Source: a virus
Lineage: Duplodnaviria > Heunggongvirae > Uroviricota > Caudoviricetes
DNA: 5,437 nt
Direction: 5' to 3' (one strand)
IMG/VR virus record: IMGVR_UViG_3300039367_000062
Span: 1-5,437 of that record
Made by a program: the position numbers and the translations under genes. Shown piece by piece: positions 405 to 5,361 of this stretch. The stretch's first letter is position 1, and each line of letters opens with the position of its first letter. Below the pieces are notes generated by a model, which was given only the letters and a program-made list of their open reading frames with translations, was not told the origin of the DNA and ran no database searches.

Positions 405-1322
405 TTAAGTTGTTGGATTTTGGCTTTTATCTTCTTTGTAAGAAAGAAGGTCACACATCAAATTAACTACCTTGCTGAATTGGAAAAGGTCAGCGCCAGT
501 CTGATGACGCCACTGGAATGCTTTATCATCTTCATCATTAAATGTCTGAGATTGAGTATTGATGCGCGAAAAATGGAAATTTTCGGTAAGAATGAAGGTC
601 ACACCGCAACCGGATAACTCCATTTTATCAGCAGTGAAACTACTACTAAGGCTATCGGCCAGTTCGCTTTGAATTGACTCATGCTCAGCTGAGTAGCGAA
701 TAATTTCCTTTTGATCTGCGTAGCGCGATAGCTGAATATAATTTCCGACAGTGAATCCTTCAAATGCATTGGCTGCACCATTGATGTAGTTATTCAGGCG
801 TGTAGTCAGTCCATTCTTGATATCACTGATGTTGATTGTTTCTGTTTTCACTGAACCGACAACCTTAATCAGCATTGCGCATACCATACCGGCTATTATT
901 TTATTGGTTGTGTTGATTACCAATAATTTCTCATCAGTGCTGTACAATGCAAGAATCAGAGTAGACTTAACAAATGCCTGTTTGCATAGATCTACTCGTA
1001 CGTTATCAATAATGGCCAGTCGTTCGGCACGCTTTAATTTATTCCCGGACATATTTTCGGTTGTTTGGATTCGAGAATTAGCTTCTTTCATGACGACATG
1101 TCGGGGAATTATTTTCTGATCATGACGGATTACCATTGCGTACCCACCAGATATCGGAGTTACCAGTTCACCAGTGACAGGATTCTCTACAAAAGAGGAC
1201 CGTGAAAATTCTGTTTCCCCGATTTCAGAATAAGGGAGTTCGAGAAGATGACCTTCAATAGCCTGTATACTAGGTAATGTTGCTCGGTACACAATTGCGT
1301 TACGAAATTTTGGTAATTTCAT
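405..1322 (-). CDS. RdgC-family recombination-associated protein (phage type), about 305 aa
   Basis: Internal ATG at 1322..1320 of the 405..1694 ORF, preceded by GAGGA with 8-nt spacing. N-terminus MKLPKFRNAIVYRA matches the RdgC N-terminal pattern (F-x-N-x-x-VYR), and overall length is RdgC-like. The 124-codon in-frame extension upstream is the translation of the GC-rich noncoding island, not protein. Confidence 0.8.
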   Translation of the reverse strand: MKLPKFRNAIVYRATLPSIQAIEGHLLELPYSEIGETEFSRSSFVENPVTGELVTPISGGYAMVIRHDQKIIPRHVVMKEANSRIQTTENMSGNKLKRAERLAIIDNVRVDLCKQAFVKSTLILALYSTDEKLLVINTTNKIIAGMVCAMLIKVVGSVKTETINISDIKNGLTTRLNNYINGAANAFEGFTVGNYIQLSRYADQKEIIRYSAEHESIQSELADSLSSSFTADKMELSGCGVTFILTENFHFSRINTQSQTFNDEDDKAFQWRHQTGADLFQFSKVVNLMCDLLSYKEDKSQNPTT

Positions 1323-1357: not shown

Positions 1358-1700
1358 CAAAACAGAGAAGAACACCTGCGGTGGCAGCCGCCCGGATGGA
1401 TTGGGTTATGAGCCCGTCGTCCGGTGATGCTCTTCTCTGTTTTGCAAAAAAGGACGGTACCAGCCGGAAGCAAGGGTACAAACTGGTACCGCCAGGACTA
1501 CACACAGCATAAAGTTGTGGTGCCGGGTGCCTCCCGGTGCCTGGCGAAGGTTGCACACCAGGCGGGTGGGTATCCACAGAAGGTCGACTGTCAGCCTCAA
1601 CCTTAACCCGCGTGCGCTGAGCCGCATTCACCACAACGCTAAGGATTCTCTCTGGTTGAAAATACTTAGCTGTTATGTGCCTGCTTTTAGCCACATCAGG
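1358..1700. other. GC-rich, ORF-poor structured island (candidate ncRNA or cis-acting RNA element)
   Basis: About 62% GC in sampled 60-nt blocks, visibly higher than the flanking genes. All six frames are open but give non-protein-like, P/G/R-rich translations. Perfect 13-bp inverted repeat CAAAACAGAGAAG (1358..1370) / CTTCTCTGTTTTG (1432..1444); 9-bp inverted repeat CGGTACCAG (1455..1463) / CTGGTACCG (1483..1491); GGTGCC three times in 1519..1541 with a CCGGG/CCCGG hairpin. Confidence 0.3.
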
Positions 1701-1739
1701 CGAGGTGGACCTGGTTATTCCCCAACAACAAGGATTCGG

Positions 1740-1762
1740 TTAATCTGGATATCCCCAACAAC
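1740..1762. repeat. Left arm of an imperfect inverted repeat flanking the 1779..2294 gene; also overlaps a 13-bp direct repeat
   Basis: TTAATCTGGATATCCCCAACAAC is the reverse complement, with a 2-bp indel, of the 2303..2326 arm; core ATCTGGATATCC is identical. TCCCCAACAACAA occurs twice in direct orientation (1719..1731 and 1752..1764). Confidence 0.5.
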
Positions 1763-1778
1763 AATAAGAGTATTCAAT

Positions 1779-2294
1779 GTGATCGCTGAATTAACGGCAG
1801 CAATGACGGCTATTCGTGAAACAGCCCAGATTGCAAAACTAATGAACGAGGCAAAAACTCAAGCTGAAGTAAATGCGGCTATTGGTGAGCTGAACTCAAA
1901 GCTTGCGTCTATTCAGCGCGAATGCGTGTCTCTCGTTGAACTGGTGGGCTCTTATCAAGAAATAAATGCTTCTCTCAAAGCTAAAATTGCAGAATTCGAA
2001 AACTTTGAGGCTCAGACGGAAGGCTATATCCTTAACCAACTTGAGTCGGGTACTTTTGTATACTCGAAGGAGGTAATCGTGAACGGTGGCAGCATAACCA
2101 TGCATCTTTGCCCAAAATGTTTTGGACAAAAGATAGTATCGATACTTCAACCATTCCCGGTTAGCAAAGATGAGCTTTTTCATAAAAGCAGGTGCCTCCA
2201 CTGTGAAAATAAGTTTCTGATGAATAAAAATCCGGATTACGTATCGCCTCCATCCATTGAGGAGTTGTCCAGAAAACTTAACGGCAATCTGTAG
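1779..2294 (+). CDS. Hypothetical coiled-coil plus C-terminal zinc-ribbon protein (about 171 aa); moron-like gene antisense to the early-left operon
   Basis: ORF 1515..2294; the upstream 88 codons are GC-rich and non-protein-like. Likely start is GTG 1779 (AAGAG 8 nt upstream) or ATG 1803 (no Shine-Dalgarno). N-terminal half is heptad-like (AKLMNEAKTQAEVNAAIGELNSKLASIQ...); C-terminal half has CPKC...(about 29 aa)...CLHC, a CxxC...CxxC ribbon. Codon usage is coding-like and AT-rich. Own terminator immediately downstream. Confidence 0.6.
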   Translation: MIAELTAAMTAIRETAQIAKLMNEAKTQAEVNAAIGELNSKLASIQRECVSLVELVGSYQEINASLKAKIAEFENFEAQTEGYILNQLESGTFVYSKEVIVNGGSITMHLCPKCFGQKIVSILQPFPVSKDELFHKSRCLHCENKFLMNKNPDYVSPPSIEELSRKLNGNL

Positions 2295-2302
2295 ATTGCT
2301 AC

Positions 2303-2326
2303 TGTTGTGGATATCCAGATTGTTAA
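2303..2326. repeat. Right arm of the imperfect inverted repeat flanking the 1779..2294 gene
   Basis: TGTTGTGGATATCCAGATTGTTAA; its reverse complement TTAACAATCTGGATATCCACAACA matches the left arm at 1740..1762. The GGATATCC core is itself palindromic. Confidence 0.5.
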
Positions 2327-2331
2327 AGAGC
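2319..2331 (-). promoter_or_regulatory. boxA-like antitermination motif on the leftward transcript (nutL-like)
   Basis: The minus strand reads GCTCTTTAACAAT, matching the rrn-type boxA consensus TGCTCTTTAACAA. It lies about 100 nt downstream of the pL-like promoter and directly after the 2333..2356 hairpin as read on the minus strand. Confidence 0.35.
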
Positions 2332-2332
2332 T

Positions 2333-2356
2333 AAGCGTCCTGTAGGGCGCTTTTTT
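2333..2356 (+). terminator. Rho-independent terminator for the 1779..2294 gene
   Basis: AAGCGTCC (2333..2340), loop TGTA, GGGCGCTT (2345..2352) gives an 8-bp stem with one G-U pair, followed by a T6 run at 2351..2356, 39 nt after the stop codon. Confidence 0.6.
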
Positions 2357-2436
2357 GTTGCTAATGAATCATCCTAGACTTCATATGCTCCAGGCGGCTA
2401 CTTCGTGGGCGTCCTGCCTGTTTGTTGTTTCTCTTG

Positions 2437-2450
2437 GGTACATTATGTAT
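2437..2450. promoter_or_regulatory. Operator-like site (OL candidate) overlapping the pL -10
   Basis: GGTACATTATGTAT matches 12 of 14 positions with GGTACATATTGTAT at 3262..3275 on the other side of the repressor gene, and contains the TACA/TGTA dyad. Confidence 0.35.
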
Positions 2451-2469
2451 CCCAAAGGCACATTGTCAA
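2442..2469 (-). promoter_or_regulatory. pL-like sigma-70 promoter driving leftward early transcription
   Basis: On the minus strand: -35 TTGACA (plus 2464..2469), 16-bp spacer, -10 CATAAT (plus 2442..2447). It sits immediately beyond the repressor-gene terminator and is overlapped by the operator-like site. Confidence 0.45.
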
Positions 2470-2508: not shown

Positions 2509-3183
2509 TTAGGCTTTGATTTTGTATCTTCTTGGTTTTCCTGAGAAAATCACAGTTCCAATTATAGAGCAATTACCGTTGATCTTAATGTAAGGCTCAG
2601 GCCAGTTTGGGTTTAACGCTTTGAGATAACGCTGTGTCCCATCTTCTATCAACCTTTTGAAGGTGGTTTCACCTGTATCGTGCATCAATGCAATAACGTC
2701 GTCACCGTGGCAGGCAGGTACTTCAGGATCGACAAAAATCATGTCTCCCGGGCGGTACTCATCAATCATTGAATCACCTATCACCCGCAAGATATAAGTC
2801 ATTTCCCCACAGGGTACAGGGCAGGGATACGTTTCTGCTGTGCTCAAATCAACCTCAGAATATCCAACTTCTTTCCATGCTCCGGCCTGTACCCATGATA
2901 TGACAGGGACTAATGTGATTTGTTTATTAGTGATTGAAACATCAGGTTTTTTTGTGATGTTCGTTGTCTGGTGTTCTTGATCGAGCCATCCGACAGGCAG
3001 GTCGAAACATTTTTCGATGTGTCGTGCCATGCTGTCACCGATATTTTTAGTAGCACCATCTCCCATAAACCTGCTGGTCTGGGTTGGCTCGCGATCAATC
3101 ATAGTGGCAAAGGAAGAATTCCCGCCAACACCATCTCTCAGTTTTCTGGCGTTAGACCGCCGGATGTCATGGATTGTTTTCAT
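2509..3183 (-). CDS. CI-type prophage repressor: N-terminal HTH, C-terminal S24 (LexA-like) autopeptidase domain
   Basis: 224-aa ORF. C-terminal domain carries the Ser/Lys dyad signature (VIGDSM ... TTFKRL) typical of LexA, lambda CI and UmuD. N-terminal region is HTH-like (QTSRFMG...ARHIEKCFDLPVGWLD). It is divergent from the Cro-like gene, with operators between. Confidence 0.9.
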   Translation of the reverse strand: MKTIHDIRRSNARKLRDGVGGNSSFATMIDREPTQTSRFMGDGATKNIGDSMARHIEKCFDLPVGWLDQEHQTTNITKKPDVSITNKQITLVPVISWVQAGAWKEVGYSEVDLSTAETYPCPVPCGEMTYILRVIGDSMIDEYRPGDMIFVDPEVPACHGDDVIALMHDTGETTFKRLIEDGTQRYLKALNPNWPEPYIKINGNCSIIGTVIFSGKPRRYKIKA

Positions 3184-3189
3184 AACGAA

Positions 3190-3218
3190 ATTAAAACCCT
3201 TGTACCGTTAAGGTACAA
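3190..3218 (-). promoter_or_regulatory. pRM-like promoter for the repressor gene (possibly leaderless mRNA)
   Basis: On the minus strand: -35 TTGTAC (plus 3213..3218, inside the palindromic operator), 17-bp spacer, -10 TTTAAT (plus 3190..3195) ending 6 nt before the repressor ATG. No Shine-Dalgarno precedes the ATG. Confidence 0.3.
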
Positions 3219-3219
3219 G
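3199..3219. promoter_or_regulatory. Perfect palindromic operator (OR candidate)
   Basis: CTTGTACC-GTTAA-GGTACAAG: 8-bp perfect arms around a 5-bp centre, in the repressor/cro intergenic region, just upstream of the pR-like -35 and overlapping the pRM-like -35. Confidence 0.5.
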
Positions 3220-3223
3220 TATC

Positions 3224-3251
3224 TTGAAGGTTCATTTCAATCATGTAATAT
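3224..3251 (+). promoter_or_regulatory. pR-like promoter for the cro-like operon
   Basis: -35 TTGAAG (3224..3229), 16-bp spacer, -10 TAATAT (3246..3251); predicted transcript start just upstream of the GGAGG Shine-Dalgarno. Confidence 0.4.
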
Positions 3252-3261
3252 GTATACCGGA

Positions 3262-3275
3262 GGTACATATTGTAT
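3262..3275. promoter_or_regulatory. Operator-like site overlapping the cro-like ribosome-binding site and start codon
   Basis: GGTACATATTGTAT, a near-duplicate of 2437..2450; it contains the cro-like ATG. Confidence 0.35.
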
Positions 3276-3474
3276 GAAAGCGTATTGGGACTCTTTAACC
3301 AAAGAACAGCAGGGCGAGTTGGCCGGAAAAGTTGGCTCAACACCTGGCTACTTACGGCTGGTTTTCAATGGCTATAAAAAAGCCAGTTTTGTGCTGGCTA
3401 AAAAACTTGAGCAATGCACGTCAGGTGCAATTACGAAATCTGACTTAAGACCGGATATCTATCCGAAAGATTAG
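3274..3474 (+). CDS. Cro-like small HTH regulator (66 aa)
   Basis: Internal ATG of the 2971..3474 ORF, whose upstream part is antisense to the repressor gene. GGAGG at 3259..3263, 10 nt upstream. Protein MKAYWDSLTKEQQGELAGKVGSTPGYLRLVFNGYKKASFVLAKKLEQCTSGAITKSDLRPDIYPKD has a small HTH-like pattern, and the position is the first rightward gene divergent from the repressor. Confidence 0.75.
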   Translation: MKAYWDSLTKEQQGELAGKVGSTPGYLRLVFNGYKKASFVLAKKLEQCTSGAITKSDLRPDIYPKD

Positions 3475-3505: not shown

Positions 3506-4075
3506 ATGAGGCTAATCGTGGGTAAGCATCACTGGAAAATAGAAAAACAGCCTGAGTGGTACGTGAAAGCTGTCAGAAAAACTATCGCGGCGTTGCCGGG
3601 TGGTTACGCTGAAGCGGCTGACTGGCTCGATGTAACAGAAAACGCTTTATTCAACCGCCTTCGTGCAGATGGCGATCAGATTTTCCCGCTGGGATGGGCA
3701 ATGGTTTTACAGCGTGCTGGTGGCACTCATTTCATTGCTGATGCTGTGGCGCAGTCTGCAAATGGCGTCTTTGTGTCTCTTCCTGACGTCGAGGATGTGG
3801 ACAACGCCGATATTAACCAGCGTCTGCTGGAAGTCATTGAACAGATCGGCAGTTATTCAAAACAGATTCGTTCAGCAATCGAAGACGGTGTAGTGGAACC
3901 GCATGAGAAGACAGCAATTAACGACGAGCTGTATCTCTCAATTTCGAAGCTGCAGGAGCATGCAGCACTTGTCTACAAAATTTTTTGCATTTCAGAAAGT
4001 AATGACGCCCGCGAGTGTGCAGCTCCGGGCGTCGTGGCGTCGATTGCTTCTGGTTGTGGAGAAACTAACGCATGA
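3506..4075 (+). CDS. CII-like / YdaT-like early regulatory protein (putative), 189 aa
   Basis: Second gene of the rightward operon, occupying the cII position. Alternative GTG start at 3518 has a GAGG 6 nt upstream. The functional assignment is positional and from weak family resemblance only. Confidence 0.65.
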
Positions 4076-4410: not shown

Positions 4411-4430
4411 AGGTCGGTCATGAGCACTAA
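4251..4430 (+). CDS. Hypothetical small protein (about 59 aa) upstream of and overlapping the replication gene start
   Basis: TTG at 4251 with AAGGAGA 7 nt upstream (GTG 4209 is an alternative start). The translation ...[56 protein letters not shown] is protein-like with preferred codons. It overlaps the next gene by 11 nt. Confidence 0.45.
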
Positions 4431-5361
4431 ATTAACCGGCTATGTATGGGATGGTTGCGCAGCGTCAGGCATGAAATTATCCAGCGTGGCAATTATGGCC
4501 CGCCTGGCTGATTTCAGTAATGACGAAGGTGTGTGCTGGCCATCGATTGAAACCATTGCCCGCCAGATTGGCGCGGGGATGAGTACAGTCAGAACGGCTA
4601 TCGCACGGCTGGAAGCAGAAGGCTGGTTAACGCGTAAGGCGCGTCGCCAGGGTAACCGCAATGCGTCGAATGTTTATCAGCTTAACGTTGCGAAGCTTCA
4701 GGCTGCGGCATTTTCTCAACTGTCAGATTCTGACCCGTCAAAATCTGACGCATCAAAATCTGACCCGTCAAAATTTGATGCGTCGAAATCTGGCAAAAAA
4801 GCGGGTTTTCACCCGTCAGAATCTGGCGGGGATCCGTCAGTAAAATCAAAACATGATCCGTCAGATAAAAAACCTTCTCGTCCGGACGCTTCGCAACCGG
4901 ACACGCAGACGGCTGAACAGGATTTTTTAACTCGCCATCCTGATGCGGTTGTATTCAGCCCTAAAAAGCGCCAGTGGGGGACGCAGGATGATTTGACCTG
5001 CGCACAGTGGCTCTGGAAAAAAATCATCGCCCTGTACGAGCAGGCTGCCGAATGTGACGGCGAGGTGGTTCGTCCCAAAGAACCGAACTGGACAGCCTGG
5101 GCAAACGAAATTCGCCTGATGTGTGTGCAGGATGGTCGTACTCACAAACAAATCTGCGAGATGTACAGCCGCGTCAGCCGCGATCCGTTCTGGTGCCGTA
5201 ACGTGCTCAGCCCGTCGAAGCTGCGGGAAAAATGGGATGAGCTTTCCCTGCGCTTATCGCCGTCCGTAAGCACGTACACCGAAAAACGCGAAGACCCGTA
5301 CTTCAAAGCCAGTTACGACAACGTGGACTACAGCCAGATCCCGGCAGGATTCAGGGGGTAA
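4420..5361 (+). CDS. Replication initiator (lambda O-like): N-terminal HTH DNA-binding domain, repeat linker containing the origin iterons, C-terminal domain
   Basis: 313-aa ORF with GAGG 6 nt upstream. The N-terminal [13 protein letters not shown]...MSTVRTAIARLEAEGWLTRKARRQGNRNASNVYQLNV is an HTH of the type found in phage replication initiators. An internal 15-bp tandem repeat array encodes SK[SF]D[PA] repeats. It sits in the O position after the cro/cII-like genes. Confidence 0.85.
   Translation: MSTKLTGYVWDGCAASGMKLSSVAIMARLADFSNDEGVCWPSIETIARQIGAGMSTVRTAIARLEAEGWLTRKARRQGNRNASNVYQLNVAKLQAAAFSQLSDSDPSKSDASKSDPSKFDASKSGKKAGFHPSESGGDPSVKSKHDPSDKKPSRPDASQPDTQTAEQDFLTRHPDAVVFSPKKRQWGTQDDLTCAQWLWKKIIALYEQAAECDGEVVRPKEPNWTAWANEIRLMCVQDGRTHKQICEMYSRVSRDPFWCRNVLSPSKLREKWDELSLRLSPSVSTYTEKREDPYFKASYDNVDYSQIPAGFRG
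4722..4796. repeat. Iteron array (candidate phage replication origin) inside the initiator gene
   Basis: Five tandem 15-bp units: GTCAGATTCTGACCC, GTCAAAATCTGACGC, ATCAAAATCTGACCC, GTCAAAATTTGATGC, GTCGAAATCTGGCAA. Each has a GTCA...TGAC internal dyad. Degenerate copies (CCGTCAGAATCTGG, CCGTCAGTAAAATC, CCGTCAGATAAAAAA) continue to about 4875, followed by A/T-rich stretches. Confidence 0.7.

What the first reader, a model, noticed from the sequence alone, without database searches (positions are those of the whole stretch)
1719..2331. Roughly 24-bp imperfect inverted repeats (ATCTGGATATCC core) bracket the moron gene, with a 13-bp direct repeat on the left
Left arm 1740..1762 and right arm 2303..2326 are reverse complements apart from a 2-bp indel. 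TCCCCAACAACAA is duplicated 33 bp apart (1719..1731 and 1752..1764). This architecture fits either terminal inverted repeats of a small inserted cassette (an insertion scar marking how the gene was acquired) or paired binding sites for a regulator controlling both ends of the locus. The right arm also overlaps the boxA-like motif of the leftward transcript.
Basis: seen in the sequence. Interest (0 to 1): 0.55.

Follow-up and report, generated by a model that had tools for sequence, protein, structure and literature searches.

The report
rRNA-operon-like frame around prophage moron
The inverted repeats around this prophage gene are real and recur around many unrelated cargo genes; together with an adjacent boxA they copy the rRNA-operon signal-plus-long-range-helix design, probably so the phage's leftward early transcript can cross a gene inserted backwards.

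Summary
In detail: arms at 1742-1760 and 2303-2321, direct repeat TCCCCAACAACAA at 1719 and 1752, and an exact boxA (GCTCTTTAACAA, 2320-2331, minus strand) overlapping the right arm.

The window is an e14/SfV/SfIV-like lambdoid immunity region. The repeats are not a transposon scar. They form a conserved frame found in 24% of complete E. coli genomes, about once per genome, and in Shigella, Klebsiella and other enterobacterial prophages. The frame holds at least four unrelated plus-strand cargo gene families.

In relatives with other cargo, homology breaks inside the arms. Several frame variants changed both arms together.

On the minus strand the right side reads hairpin, boxA, AAUCUGGAU. This matches the 16S-23S spacer of host rRNA operons at up to 19 of 19 bases. 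There, the same bases start a helix that closes around 23S rRNA.

Best explanation (confidence about 0.5, no experiment): in the leftward PL transcript the arms form an rRNA-type leader-trailer helix next to a Nus-factor boxA. It loops out, and perhaps lets RNase III excise, the untranslated antisense copy of the cargo gene. This is a new variant of a known kind.

The parts
1709..1741 (.). Left frame, unit 1 of a tandem duplication of about 33 bp. It contains direct-repeat copy 1 (TCCCCAACAACAA, 1719-1731). This is the left boundary of the exchangeable module.
   Evidence: D3. Homology to SfV, e14 and SfII ends at 1708. The sequence TTCCCCAACAACAAGGATTC is conserved in more than 120 viral contigs.
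1742..1767 (-). Left arm. Proposed trailer (3') strand of the long-range helix in the leftward transcript. It includes direct-repeat copy 2 (1752-1764). On the plus strand it is also the CA-rich leader in front of the cargo gene's ribosome-binding site.
   Evidence: It pairs with 2299-2321 in the minimum-energy and centroid folds. It is conserved in all 36 cassette clusters.
1779..2294 (+). Cargo (moron) gene: GTG start, 171 aa, coiled-coil N-terminal part and a C-terminal four-cysteine motif. Function unknown.
   Evidence: ORF frame. phrog_1244, E = 9.6e-60. No Pfam family above threshold, no PADLOC and no NCBIfam match. Replaced by unrelated genes in relatives.
2299..2321 (-). Right arm. Proposed leader (5') strand of the helix, directly after boxA. 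Its outer AAUCUGGAU is identical to the sequence after boxA in the rRNA 16S-23S spacer.
   Evidence: rRNA comparison.
2320..2331 (-). rrn-type boxA, GCUCUUUAACAA.
   Evidence: Exact match. An arm plus boxA-like motif is present in 84 of 87 loci retrieved through the left arm alone.
2333..2358 (+). Hairpin AAGCGTCC-TGTA-GGGCGCTT plus a T-run: an intrinsic terminator for the cargo gene. Read on the minus strand it is a hairpin just upstream of boxA (boxB position), weakened by a C.A mismatch and lacking a U-run.
   Evidence: In the O157 Rac-like context a different hairpin without a T-run holds the same position before boxA.
2442..2469 (-). PL-like early-left promoter (TTGACA, 16 nt, CATAAT). 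It would drive the transcript that reads boxA and both arms.
   Evidence: 11 of 12 consensus matches. It lies just left of the cI/YmfK-like repressor gene at 2509-3183.
1444..1667 (-). Context: a structured non-coding stretch downstream of the trailer strand on the same transcript. It resembles STnc100 and ends in a hairpin plus T6.
   Evidence: 40.3 bits, below the gathering score of 47. A shared stretch occurs in the K-12 Rac kilS region.

Best explanation
The two arms are the two strands of a long-range RNA helix in the leftward early (PL) transcript. The design mimics the 16S-23S spacer of an rRNA operon.

Proposed sequence of events:
1. RNA polymerase starts at PL (about 2440).
2. It transcribes a hairpin, then an rrn-type boxA (2331-2320), which recruits NusB/NusE and the other Nus factors.
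3. It transcribes the leader strand (right arm, 2321-2299), then about 530 nt of untranslated antisense cargo RNA.
4. It transcribes the trailer strand (left arm, 1767-1742).
5. With boxA held on the polymerase, the two strands meet and close a helix of about 19-23 bp around the antisense insert.

The complex would let the polymerase cross a backwards-inserted, untranslated gene without Rho-dependent polarity. The helix would loop out the antisense RNA, and possibly offer it to RNase III for excision.

The same conserved frame also serves the plus strand as an expression frame for the cargo: a CA-rich leader on the left and an intrinsic terminator on the right. It also provides homology for swapping cargo genes between phages.

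Shown: the architecture, its conservation, the sequence identity and shared register with the rRNA spacer, and the joint changes in both arms.

Inferred: Nus-factor binding, resistance to Rho, helix formation in vivo, and RNase III cleavage.
For: 1. Recurrence. 36 k-mer-distinct cassette clusters (89 unique modules) share the frame. They cover at least four unrelated PHROG families: 1244, 5286, 7681 and 6315.

2. Breakpoints. Homology with SfIV, Kati and UTI89 breaks inside the arms.

3. Joint changes in both arms:
- ATATCC to ATGACT in UTI89-type modules
- A8 to T in SfIV
- T11 to C
- G7 to A in L369, G6 to T in L371, and a new shared core GTAACCCTC in L373
- A19 to G in Klebsiella phage Kp4882-1

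4. Formal pair count on 55 distinct arm pairs: 82.2% of cells paired, against 79.0 +/- 0.5 in shuffles (0 of 500 shuffles reach it). 13 pairs have changes on both sides, against 7.8 +/- 1.4 (0 of 500). Slid controls give 28-49% paired.

5. Strand.
- boxA is strand-specific and adjoins the right arm in 84 of 87 loci retrieved by the left arm alone.
- Arm duplexes are more stable as minus-strand RNA in 32 of 36 clusters.
- G.U pairs number 89 on the minus-strand RNA and 22 on the plus-strand RNA.
- Full-length minimum-energy folds contain the helix in 35 of 36 modules (minus) against 29 of 36 (plus).
- The Klebsiella arms pair at 20 of 21 positions on the minus strand against 18 of 21 on the plus strand.

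6. rRNA mimicry.
- GCTCTTTAA(A/C)AATCTGGAT is the boxA region of the 16S-23S spacer in Enterobacterales and other Gammaproteobacteria.
- In those operons the bases right after boxA pair best with a site just past the 3' end of 23S, about 3.0-3.1 kb downstream. That partner covaries in distant taxa.
- The helix starts in the same register, at AAUCUG.

7. Partner dependence. Left frames that lack a right arm and boxA have degenerate cores (AATCTGAAATCCC and others) but keep the inner CCCCAAC. So the core appears conserved only where a partner exists.

8. Published model. In rRNA operons, boxA lies next to the upstream strand of the processing helix, and tethering by Nus factors is proposed to promote loop and helix formation (PMC4807359, PMC10250234).
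Against: - No transcript, cleavage or binding data exist for this locus.
- Within the 13-bp core the strand preference is weak: 95.2% against 94.0% paired, with 22 against 13 G.U pairs.
- Inner positions 14-22 pair in only 63% of cells. In some cassettes the helix is little more than 13 bp, whereas the 16S leader-trailer helix needs more than 17 bp (PMC10250234).
- The inner part of the left arm is more conserved than pairing requires, so it has another role.
- Other plus-strand cargo genes sit in equivalent slots without any frame: e14 ymfI, SfII orf36 and Rac sieB. The frame is therefore not obligatory.
- Loci were retrieved by exact matches to parts of the frame, which inflates the apparent conservation of the part used as bait.
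- A hairpin stands just upstream of boxA. If it terminated leftward transcription efficiently, boxA would not be transcribed.
Confidence: 0.5

Rival explanations
1. The arms pair within the cargo gene's own plus-strand mRNA, joining the 5' UTR to the 3' UTR just before the terminator. This would protect the ends from RNases or tune translation.
For: The helix is also present in plus-strand folds of the window and in 29 of 36 modules. Arm duplexes on the plus-strand RNA also score better than controls, mean z = -1.8. The left arm lies just upstream of the ribosome-binding site.
Against: No plus-strand promoter was found upstream of the left arm, so it is unknown whether the mRNA includes that arm. 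Most one-sided changes give A.C mismatches on the plus-strand RNA and G.U pairs on the minus-strand RNA. This model does not explain the invariant coupling to a minus-strand boxA, nor the match to the rRNA spacer.
Confidence: 0.12
2. The arms act at the DNA level only, or are a relic. They would be recombination joints or a remnant of how the module arose (for example a captured piece of rRNA spacer). They would persist because the conserved frame is the homology used to swap cargo genes, with no present role for the complementarity.
For: Homology breakpoints fall in or beside the arms. The frame is more conserved than its contents: about 0.88-0.91 against 0.55-0.68 pairwise identity. Both strands resemble the rRNA spacer, which fits capture from the host.
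Against: A relic should decay independently on the two sides. Instead both arms changed together at least seven times, and the left core degenerates only where the partner is missing. The arms are too short (13-20 bp) for efficient gene conversion between them (inference). There is no target duplication, no empty site and no dispersed copies.
Confidence: 0.15
3. The arms are paired binding sites for a DNA-binding regulator (phage or host) that loops the DNA or controls both ends of the locus.
For: The core GGATATCC is a palindrome. A third, degenerate copy lies 33 bp to the left (1709-1731). Such spacing recalls operator arrays.
Against: Conservation is asymmetric around the palindrome: AATCT occurs on the outer side only. 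The ATGACT and GTAACCCTC variants are not palindromic, yet both arms still match. The arms differ from the cI operators near PL and PR (direct reading of 2430-2470 and 3190-3270). No candidate protein travels with the frame, because the cargo genes are unrelated.
Confidence: 0.07
4. The arms are recombination sites of an invertible segment, a Hin/Gin/Pin-type switch that flips the cargo gene.
For: Inverted repeats flank a gene that points against its operon. e14-like prophages encode a Pin invertase elsewhere (own knowledge).
Against: Among 89 unique modules, none shares sequence with another in the inverted orientation. In nearly all clusters the longest ORF follows the left arm on the plus strand. 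The arms do not resemble hix/gix sites (from memory).
Confidence: 0.02

Closest known systems
rRNA operon 16S-23S spacer: boxB-like hairpin, boxA, and the long-range helix that brackets 23S rRNA
   Same: - The order is the same: hairpin, boxA, helix strand.
- The sequence GCUCUUUAA(A/C)AAUCUGGAU matches at up to 19 of 19 bases.
- The helix starts in the same register, at AAUCUG.
- The trailer strand ends in ...CAGAUUAA in both.
- In both, the helix closes around a long untranslated insert.
   Different: - The insert is the antisense copy of a 0.4-0.9 kb protein-coding cargo gene, not an rRNA.
- The predicted helix is shorter (13-23 bp).
- It lies in a phage early operon under repressor control.
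- Processing and Nus-factor dependence are untested.
Lambda-type nutL site (boxA, then boxB, with N protein)
   Same: A boxA lies about 110 nt downstream of a repressor-controlled leftward early promoter, in a lambdoid immunity region.
   Different: - No conserved boxB hairpin follows boxA.
- The hairpin precedes boxA, as in rRNA operons, and its loop sequence varies between modules.
- boxA has the rrn form, not the lambda form.
- No N homologue was identified in the window.
Nus-factor boxA elements outside rRNA (suhB leader, CRISPR array leaders)
   Same: A stand-alone rrn-type boxA sits in front of a long untranslated stretch. Its known job there is to suppress Rho-dependent termination (PMC5725501, PMC7665894).
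   Different: Here boxA is coupled to a partner strand hundreds of bases downstream, and it travels with an exchangeable gene cassette.
Morons of lambdoid phages (cargo gene with its own promoter and terminator between operon genes)
   Same: - An extra gene is present or absent among related phages.
- It has its own intrinsic terminator.
- It has lower G+C than its neighbours.
   Different: - It points against the surrounding operon.
- It is embedded in a conserved, reusable frame with inverted arms and a boxA for the opposing transcript.
- No promoter was recognised by the consensus scan.
Terminal inverted repeats of MITEs or insertion sequences
   Same: Short inverted repeats lie at the two ends of a variable DNA segment.
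   Different: - No target-site duplication.
- No transposase.
- One copy per prophage slot.
- No empty sites.
- Conserved sequence continues outward beyond both arms.

Membership tests
rrn-type (Nus-factor) boxA element | boxA consensus GCUCUUUAACAA on the transcribed strand | tested here: met
   Exact 12 of 12 at 2320-2331, minus strand. Retained, with at most one substitution, in 84 of 87 independently retrieved modules.
rrn-type (Nus-factor) boxA element | Lies downstream of a promoter that reads the same strand | tested here: met
   A promoter-like site on the minus strand, TTGACA-16-CATAAT at 2469-2442. This is a consensus match only; no transcript data.
rrn-type (Nus-factor) boxA element | Binds NusB/NusE and confers resistance to Rho | not testable with these tools
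   Requires gel shift, ChIP or reporter assays.
rRNA-type leader-trailer helix | Complementary strands bracket a long insert, with the leader strand next to boxA | tested here: met
   Arms at 2299-2321 and 1742-1767 pair in the minimum-energy and centroid folds. Same register as the rRNA spacer helix.
rRNA-type leader-trailer helix | Covariation supports the pairing | tested here: met
   13 pairs changed on both sides, against 7.8 +/- 1.4 in shuffles (0 of 500). Named double changes. Caveat: the sequences are related, and the structure was derived from them.
rRNA-type leader-trailer helix | Helix long enough to function (more than 17 bp for the 16S case) and cleaved by RNase III | tested here: inconclusive
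   The window has 18 of 19 bp ungapped, and 23 bp with a 3-nt bulge in the fold. Other cassettes have 13 bp plus an irregular extension. Cleavage cannot be tested here.
Lambda-type nut site | A boxB hairpin downstream of boxA, recognised by an N protein | tested here: not met
   The sequence after boxA is the arm followed by cassette-specific sequence. No conserved hairpin was seen there across modules.
Transposable element with terminal inverted repeats (MITE-like) | Target-site duplication flanking the repeats | tested here: not met
   The bases outside the left arm vary (GGTT, GTAT, GGGT and others), while the right side is fixed boxA sequence.
Transposable element with terminal inverted repeats (MITE-like) | Many dispersed copies, and empty sites | tested here: not met
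   Median 1 and at most 3 places per E. coli genome. No empty frame in viral contigs. Prophages without the module carry no repeat copy.
Invertible DNA segment | Both orientations of the segment occur | tested here: not met
   No inverted matches among 89 unique modules.
Moron | Own terminator; present or absent among related phages | tested here: met
   Terminator at 2333-2352 plus a T-run. The gene is replaced or absent in SfV, e14, SfII, SfIV and UTI89.
Moron | Own promoter | tested here: inconclusive
   No sigma-70 consensus match on the plus strand upstream of 1779.

The most novel reading that the evidence does not exclude
The frame is a portable genetic insulator that hijacks the host's rRNA transcription machinery (the Nus/SuhB antitermination and chaperone complex, and RNase III). 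It would let any cargo gene sit backwards inside a phage operon. The complex would carry the polymerase across the untranslated antisense stretch. The boxA-tethered helix would then loop out and excise that antisense RNA, much as pre-23S rRNA is released. The frame may have been captured from the host 16S-23S spacer.
Probability: 0.35. Interest if true: 0.8.

Novelty: new variant of a known kind. Interest (0 to 1): 0.62.

Why it matters

If confirmed, this would be a widespread third context for the boxA-plus-helix design. The frame is present in about a quarter of complete E. coli genomes. It would also suggest how prophages tolerate cargo genes inserted against the direction of an essential early operon.

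It would provide a small, non-essential, easily mutated model for how tethering by boxA promotes long-range RNA helices. That question is hard to study in rRNA operons themselves.

The conserved frame also marks a hotspot where unknown cargo genes (possible exclusion or defence genes) can be harvested systematically.

Tried and rejected
- MITE or insertion scar. Rejected: no empty site, no repeat copy in prophages without the module, about one copy per genome.
- Invertible switch. Rejected: no inverted cassettes.
- Tandem cassette array, integron-like. No locus has two arm-plus-boxA units on one strand.
- cI operator or DnaA box. The arms do not resemble the operator palindromes near PL and PR. 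The near-match of the right arm to a DnaA box (ATATCCACA) is not conserved in other right arms.
- Lambda-type boxB after boxA. The hairpin at 2284-2299 is specific to this cassette (one search compared).
- K-12 Rac sieB as a possible well-studied example. It has neither arms nor boxA.
- Function of the cargo protein. No Pfam family above threshold and no PADLOC or NCBIfam match; only a PHROG family of unknown function.
- GC skew as a proxy for Rho loading sites on the antisense RNA. Uninformative.
- Literature searches for a prior description of boxA framing prophage cargo genes found nothing relevant. The library is incomplete.
- The second outer pairing seen in the window's fold (UAGCAACAA with direct-repeat copy 1) is not conserved in other right flanks.

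Full report
**Observation.** The inverted repeat is real. Arms at 1742-1760 and 2303-2321 are 19 nt long and 95% complementary without gaps. The 12-mer ATCTGGATATCC occurs once on each strand, against 0.01 expected by chance. The direct repeat TCCCCAACAACAA is exact at 1719 and 1752. By direct reading it belongs to a tandem duplication of about 33 bp spanning 1709-1775. An exact GCTCTTTAACAA lies at 2320-2331 on the minus strand and overlaps the right arm.

**Setting.** The window is the immunity region of an e14/SfV/SfIV-like lambdoid prophage. It contains:
- an RdgC-like gene at 405-1322 (minus strand)
- a cI/YmfK-like repressor at 2509-3183 (minus strand)
- a cro-like gene at 3274-3474
- a ymfL-like gene at 3506-4075
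- a replication gene at 4420-5361

A strong PL-like promoter reads leftward from 2469-2442. The bracketed gene (GTG 1779 to stop 2294, 171 aa, phrog_1244, function unknown) lies on the plus strand. It therefore points against that leftward transcript. It ends in a plus-strand intrinsic terminator at 2333-2352.

**Relatives.**
- SfV, e14, SfII and one O18 strain share the flanks but differ over the whole block 1709-2361. They contain neither arm nor boxA.
- SfIV, Kati and UTI89 carry different plus-strand genes in the same place. Their homology to the window stops inside the arms, at 1762/2315 and 1750/2313. Each has its own inverted pair. UTI89 has AATCTGGATGACT / AGTCATCCAGATT, perfect over 13 bp.
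- In O157:H7 the module, including both arms and boxA (window 1671-2331), sits in a different, Rac-like prophage.

**Breadth.** Pattern scans of viral contigs gave 89 unique modules in 36 k-mer-distinct cassette clusters. Cargo genes come from at least four unrelated PHROG families. All share one frame.
- Left side: TTATTCCCCAACAACAAGGATTCGGTT, then AATCTGGATATCCCCAACAAC, then the ribosome-binding site.
- Right side: a looser G/T-rich stretch, then GGATATCCAGATT, then GTTAAAGAGC, a hairpin, and usually a T-run.

The 55-nt left frame occurs in 1307 of 5426 complete E. coli genomes. The median is one place per genome and the maximum is three. It also occurs in 16 sequenced phages of Escherichia, Shigella, Klebsiella and, in degenerate form, Salmonella.

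No empty frame, no tandem array and no inverted cassette was found. This rules out a MITE-like element and an invertible switch. It shows that the repeats are boundary elements of an exchangeable slot.

**Which strand matters.** boxA works only as RNA on the minus strand. Among 87 loci retrieved through the left arm alone, 79 have a right arm followed by boxA, and 5 more have a one-base boxA variant. In the O157 context the hairpin is different and has no T-run, so it is not a terminator for the cargo gene. Hairpin, boxA (TGCTCTTTAACAA) and arm are still kept in that order.

**rRNA mimicry.** A scan of one genome per species with ATCCAGATTKTTAAAGAGC returned mainly rRNA operons. The 16S-23S spacer of Enterobacterales reads hairpin, UUUGCUCUUUAAAAAUCUGGAUCAAGCUGAAAAUU. 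Other Gammaproteobacteria have GCUCUUUAACAAUCUGGAU.

In E. coli, Enterobacter and Klebsiella operons, the bases right after this boxA have their best RNA partner about 3.0-3.06 kb downstream. The partner lies between the 3' end of 23S and 5S: GAUUUUCAGCCUGAUACAGAUUAAA, at -21 to -24 kcal/mol. In distant taxa both strands differ from the E. coli sequence but still match each other.

So in the host, boxA is followed at once by the leader strand of a helix that encloses 23S rRNA. That helix starts at AAUCUG and ends at CAGAUUAA. The phage frame has the same order, the same register, and the same outer bases on both strands. Some modules match the host spacer at 19 of 19 bases.

Published work proposes that Nus factors hold boxA on the polymerase and thereby help such leader-trailer helices form. 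RNase III then cleaves them (PMC4807359, PMC10250234).

**Pairing evidence.** On 55 distinct arm pairs read as minus-strand RNA:
- 82.2% of cells form standard pairs, against 79.0 +/- 0.5 in shuffles (0 of 500 shuffles reach it).
- 13 of 22 pairs show changes on both sides, against 7.8 +/- 1.4 (0 of 500).
- Slid controls give 28-49% paired.

Independent joint changes in both arms include:
- ATATCC to ATGACT
- A8 to T (SfIV)
- T11 to C
- G7 to A (L369)
- G6 to T (L371)
- a new shared core GTAACCCTC (L373)
- A19 to G (Klebsiella Kp4882-1)

One-sided changes are mostly C to U or A to G in the boxA-side arm. These keep G.U pairs on the minus-strand RNA but make A.C mismatches on the plus-strand RNA. 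G.U pairs number 89 on the minus strand against 22 on the plus strand, and overall pairing is 82.2% against 76.7%.

Arm duplexes are more stable as minus-strand RNA in 32 of 36 clusters. The helix appears in full-length minimum-energy folds of 35 of 36 modules on the minus strand, against 29 of 36 on the plus strand. In the window it appears in both the minimum-energy and centroid structures.

Left frames that have no right arm and no boxA keep the inner CCCCAAC leader but have degenerate cores. So the core seems to be conserved only where it has a partner.

**Mechanism proposed.** The leftward PL transcript carries an rRNA-type hairpin, a boxA and a leader strand. It then carries the untranslated antisense copy of the cargo gene, then the trailer strand. 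The Nus complex would protect the polymerase from Rho on the untranslated stretch. It would also hold the leader strand until the trailer strand emerges. The resulting helix would loop out the antisense RNA and may be an RNase III site.

Rho is known to silence leftward genes such as kilR in the Rac prophage (PMC5793797). Rac has a backwards sieB gene but no such frame.

On the plus strand the same frame supplies a CA-rich leader and a terminator for whatever cargo is present. Its conserved ends give homology for exchanging cargo.

None of the RNA-level steps has been tested experimentally.

**Limits.**
- Strand preference within the 13-bp core is weak.
- The inner extension pairs in only 63% of cells.
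- Some helices are barely longer than 13 bp.
- The inner part of the left arm is conserved beyond what pairing needs.
- Frameless backwards genes exist (e14 ymfI, SfII orf36, Rac sieB).
- No promoter was found for the cargo gene.
- The loci were gathered with frame sequences as bait, although each scan left the other side free to vary.

**Verdict.** The transposon-scar and regulator-site readings are not the best fit. The most likely explanation is an rRNA-operon-like boxA plus leader-trailer helix that frames backwards-inserted prophage cargo genes. This is a new variant of a known kind, of moderate to high interest, and directly testable with compensatory arm mutations and nus or rnc mutant hosts.

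Noticed in passing
window 1444-1667 (minus strand): A sub-threshold Rfam match to the prophage sRNA family STnc100 (40.3 bits, gathering score 47). Its 3' end is a hairpin, GGTACCAG...CTGGTACC, followed by T6 on the minus strand. That could act as a terminator between PL and the RdgC-like gene. The stretch GCCGCCAGGACTACACACAGCA also occurs in the annotated kilS sRNA region of K-12 Rac.
   Followed up: partly
window 4708-4797, inside the replication gene 4420-5361: Five to six repeats with a 15-bp period (consensus about TCAAAATCTGACCCG). They also form inverted pairs and look like origin iterons inside an O-like gene. They explain the spurious Rfam mir-5880 match.
   Followed up: partly
window 1709-1775: The 13-bp direct repeat is the core of a longer tandem duplication of about 33 bp. 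Each unit has CTGG(A/T)TAT, then CCCCAACAACAA, then a purine-rich stretch. The first unit contains ACAAGGAU, which resembles the CsrA binding core (from memory). The CA-rich leader is kept even in frames that lack the right arm.
   Followed up: partly
loci L013, L022, L027, L029, L039 and others: The extended boxA GCTCTTTAACAATCTGG also occurs in many other phage contexts, followed by unrelated sequence and with no partner arm found. An rRNA-spacer-like boxA flank may therefore be widely used by phages.
   Followed up: no
window 1896-2201 (minus strand): A codon-aligned antisense ORF of about 95-130 aa stays open inside most cassettes of this cargo family. It is probably a by-product of the sense reading frame. 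If it were translated, it would weaken the assumption that the antisense stretch is untranslated.
   Followed up: no
loci L351, L358, L359, L362, L374, L392: A class of modules keeps the left leader frame but has a degenerate arm core, no right arm and no boxA within 3.5 kb. Their architecture and cargo (starting MKRSDVF...) were not examined.
   Followed up: no
window 2333-2352 and equivalent hairpins in other modules: The terminator stem usually has a U.G pair on the plus-strand RNA. The same position is a C.A mismatch on the minus-strand RNA. This fits a terminator built to work in one direction only.
   Followed up: no
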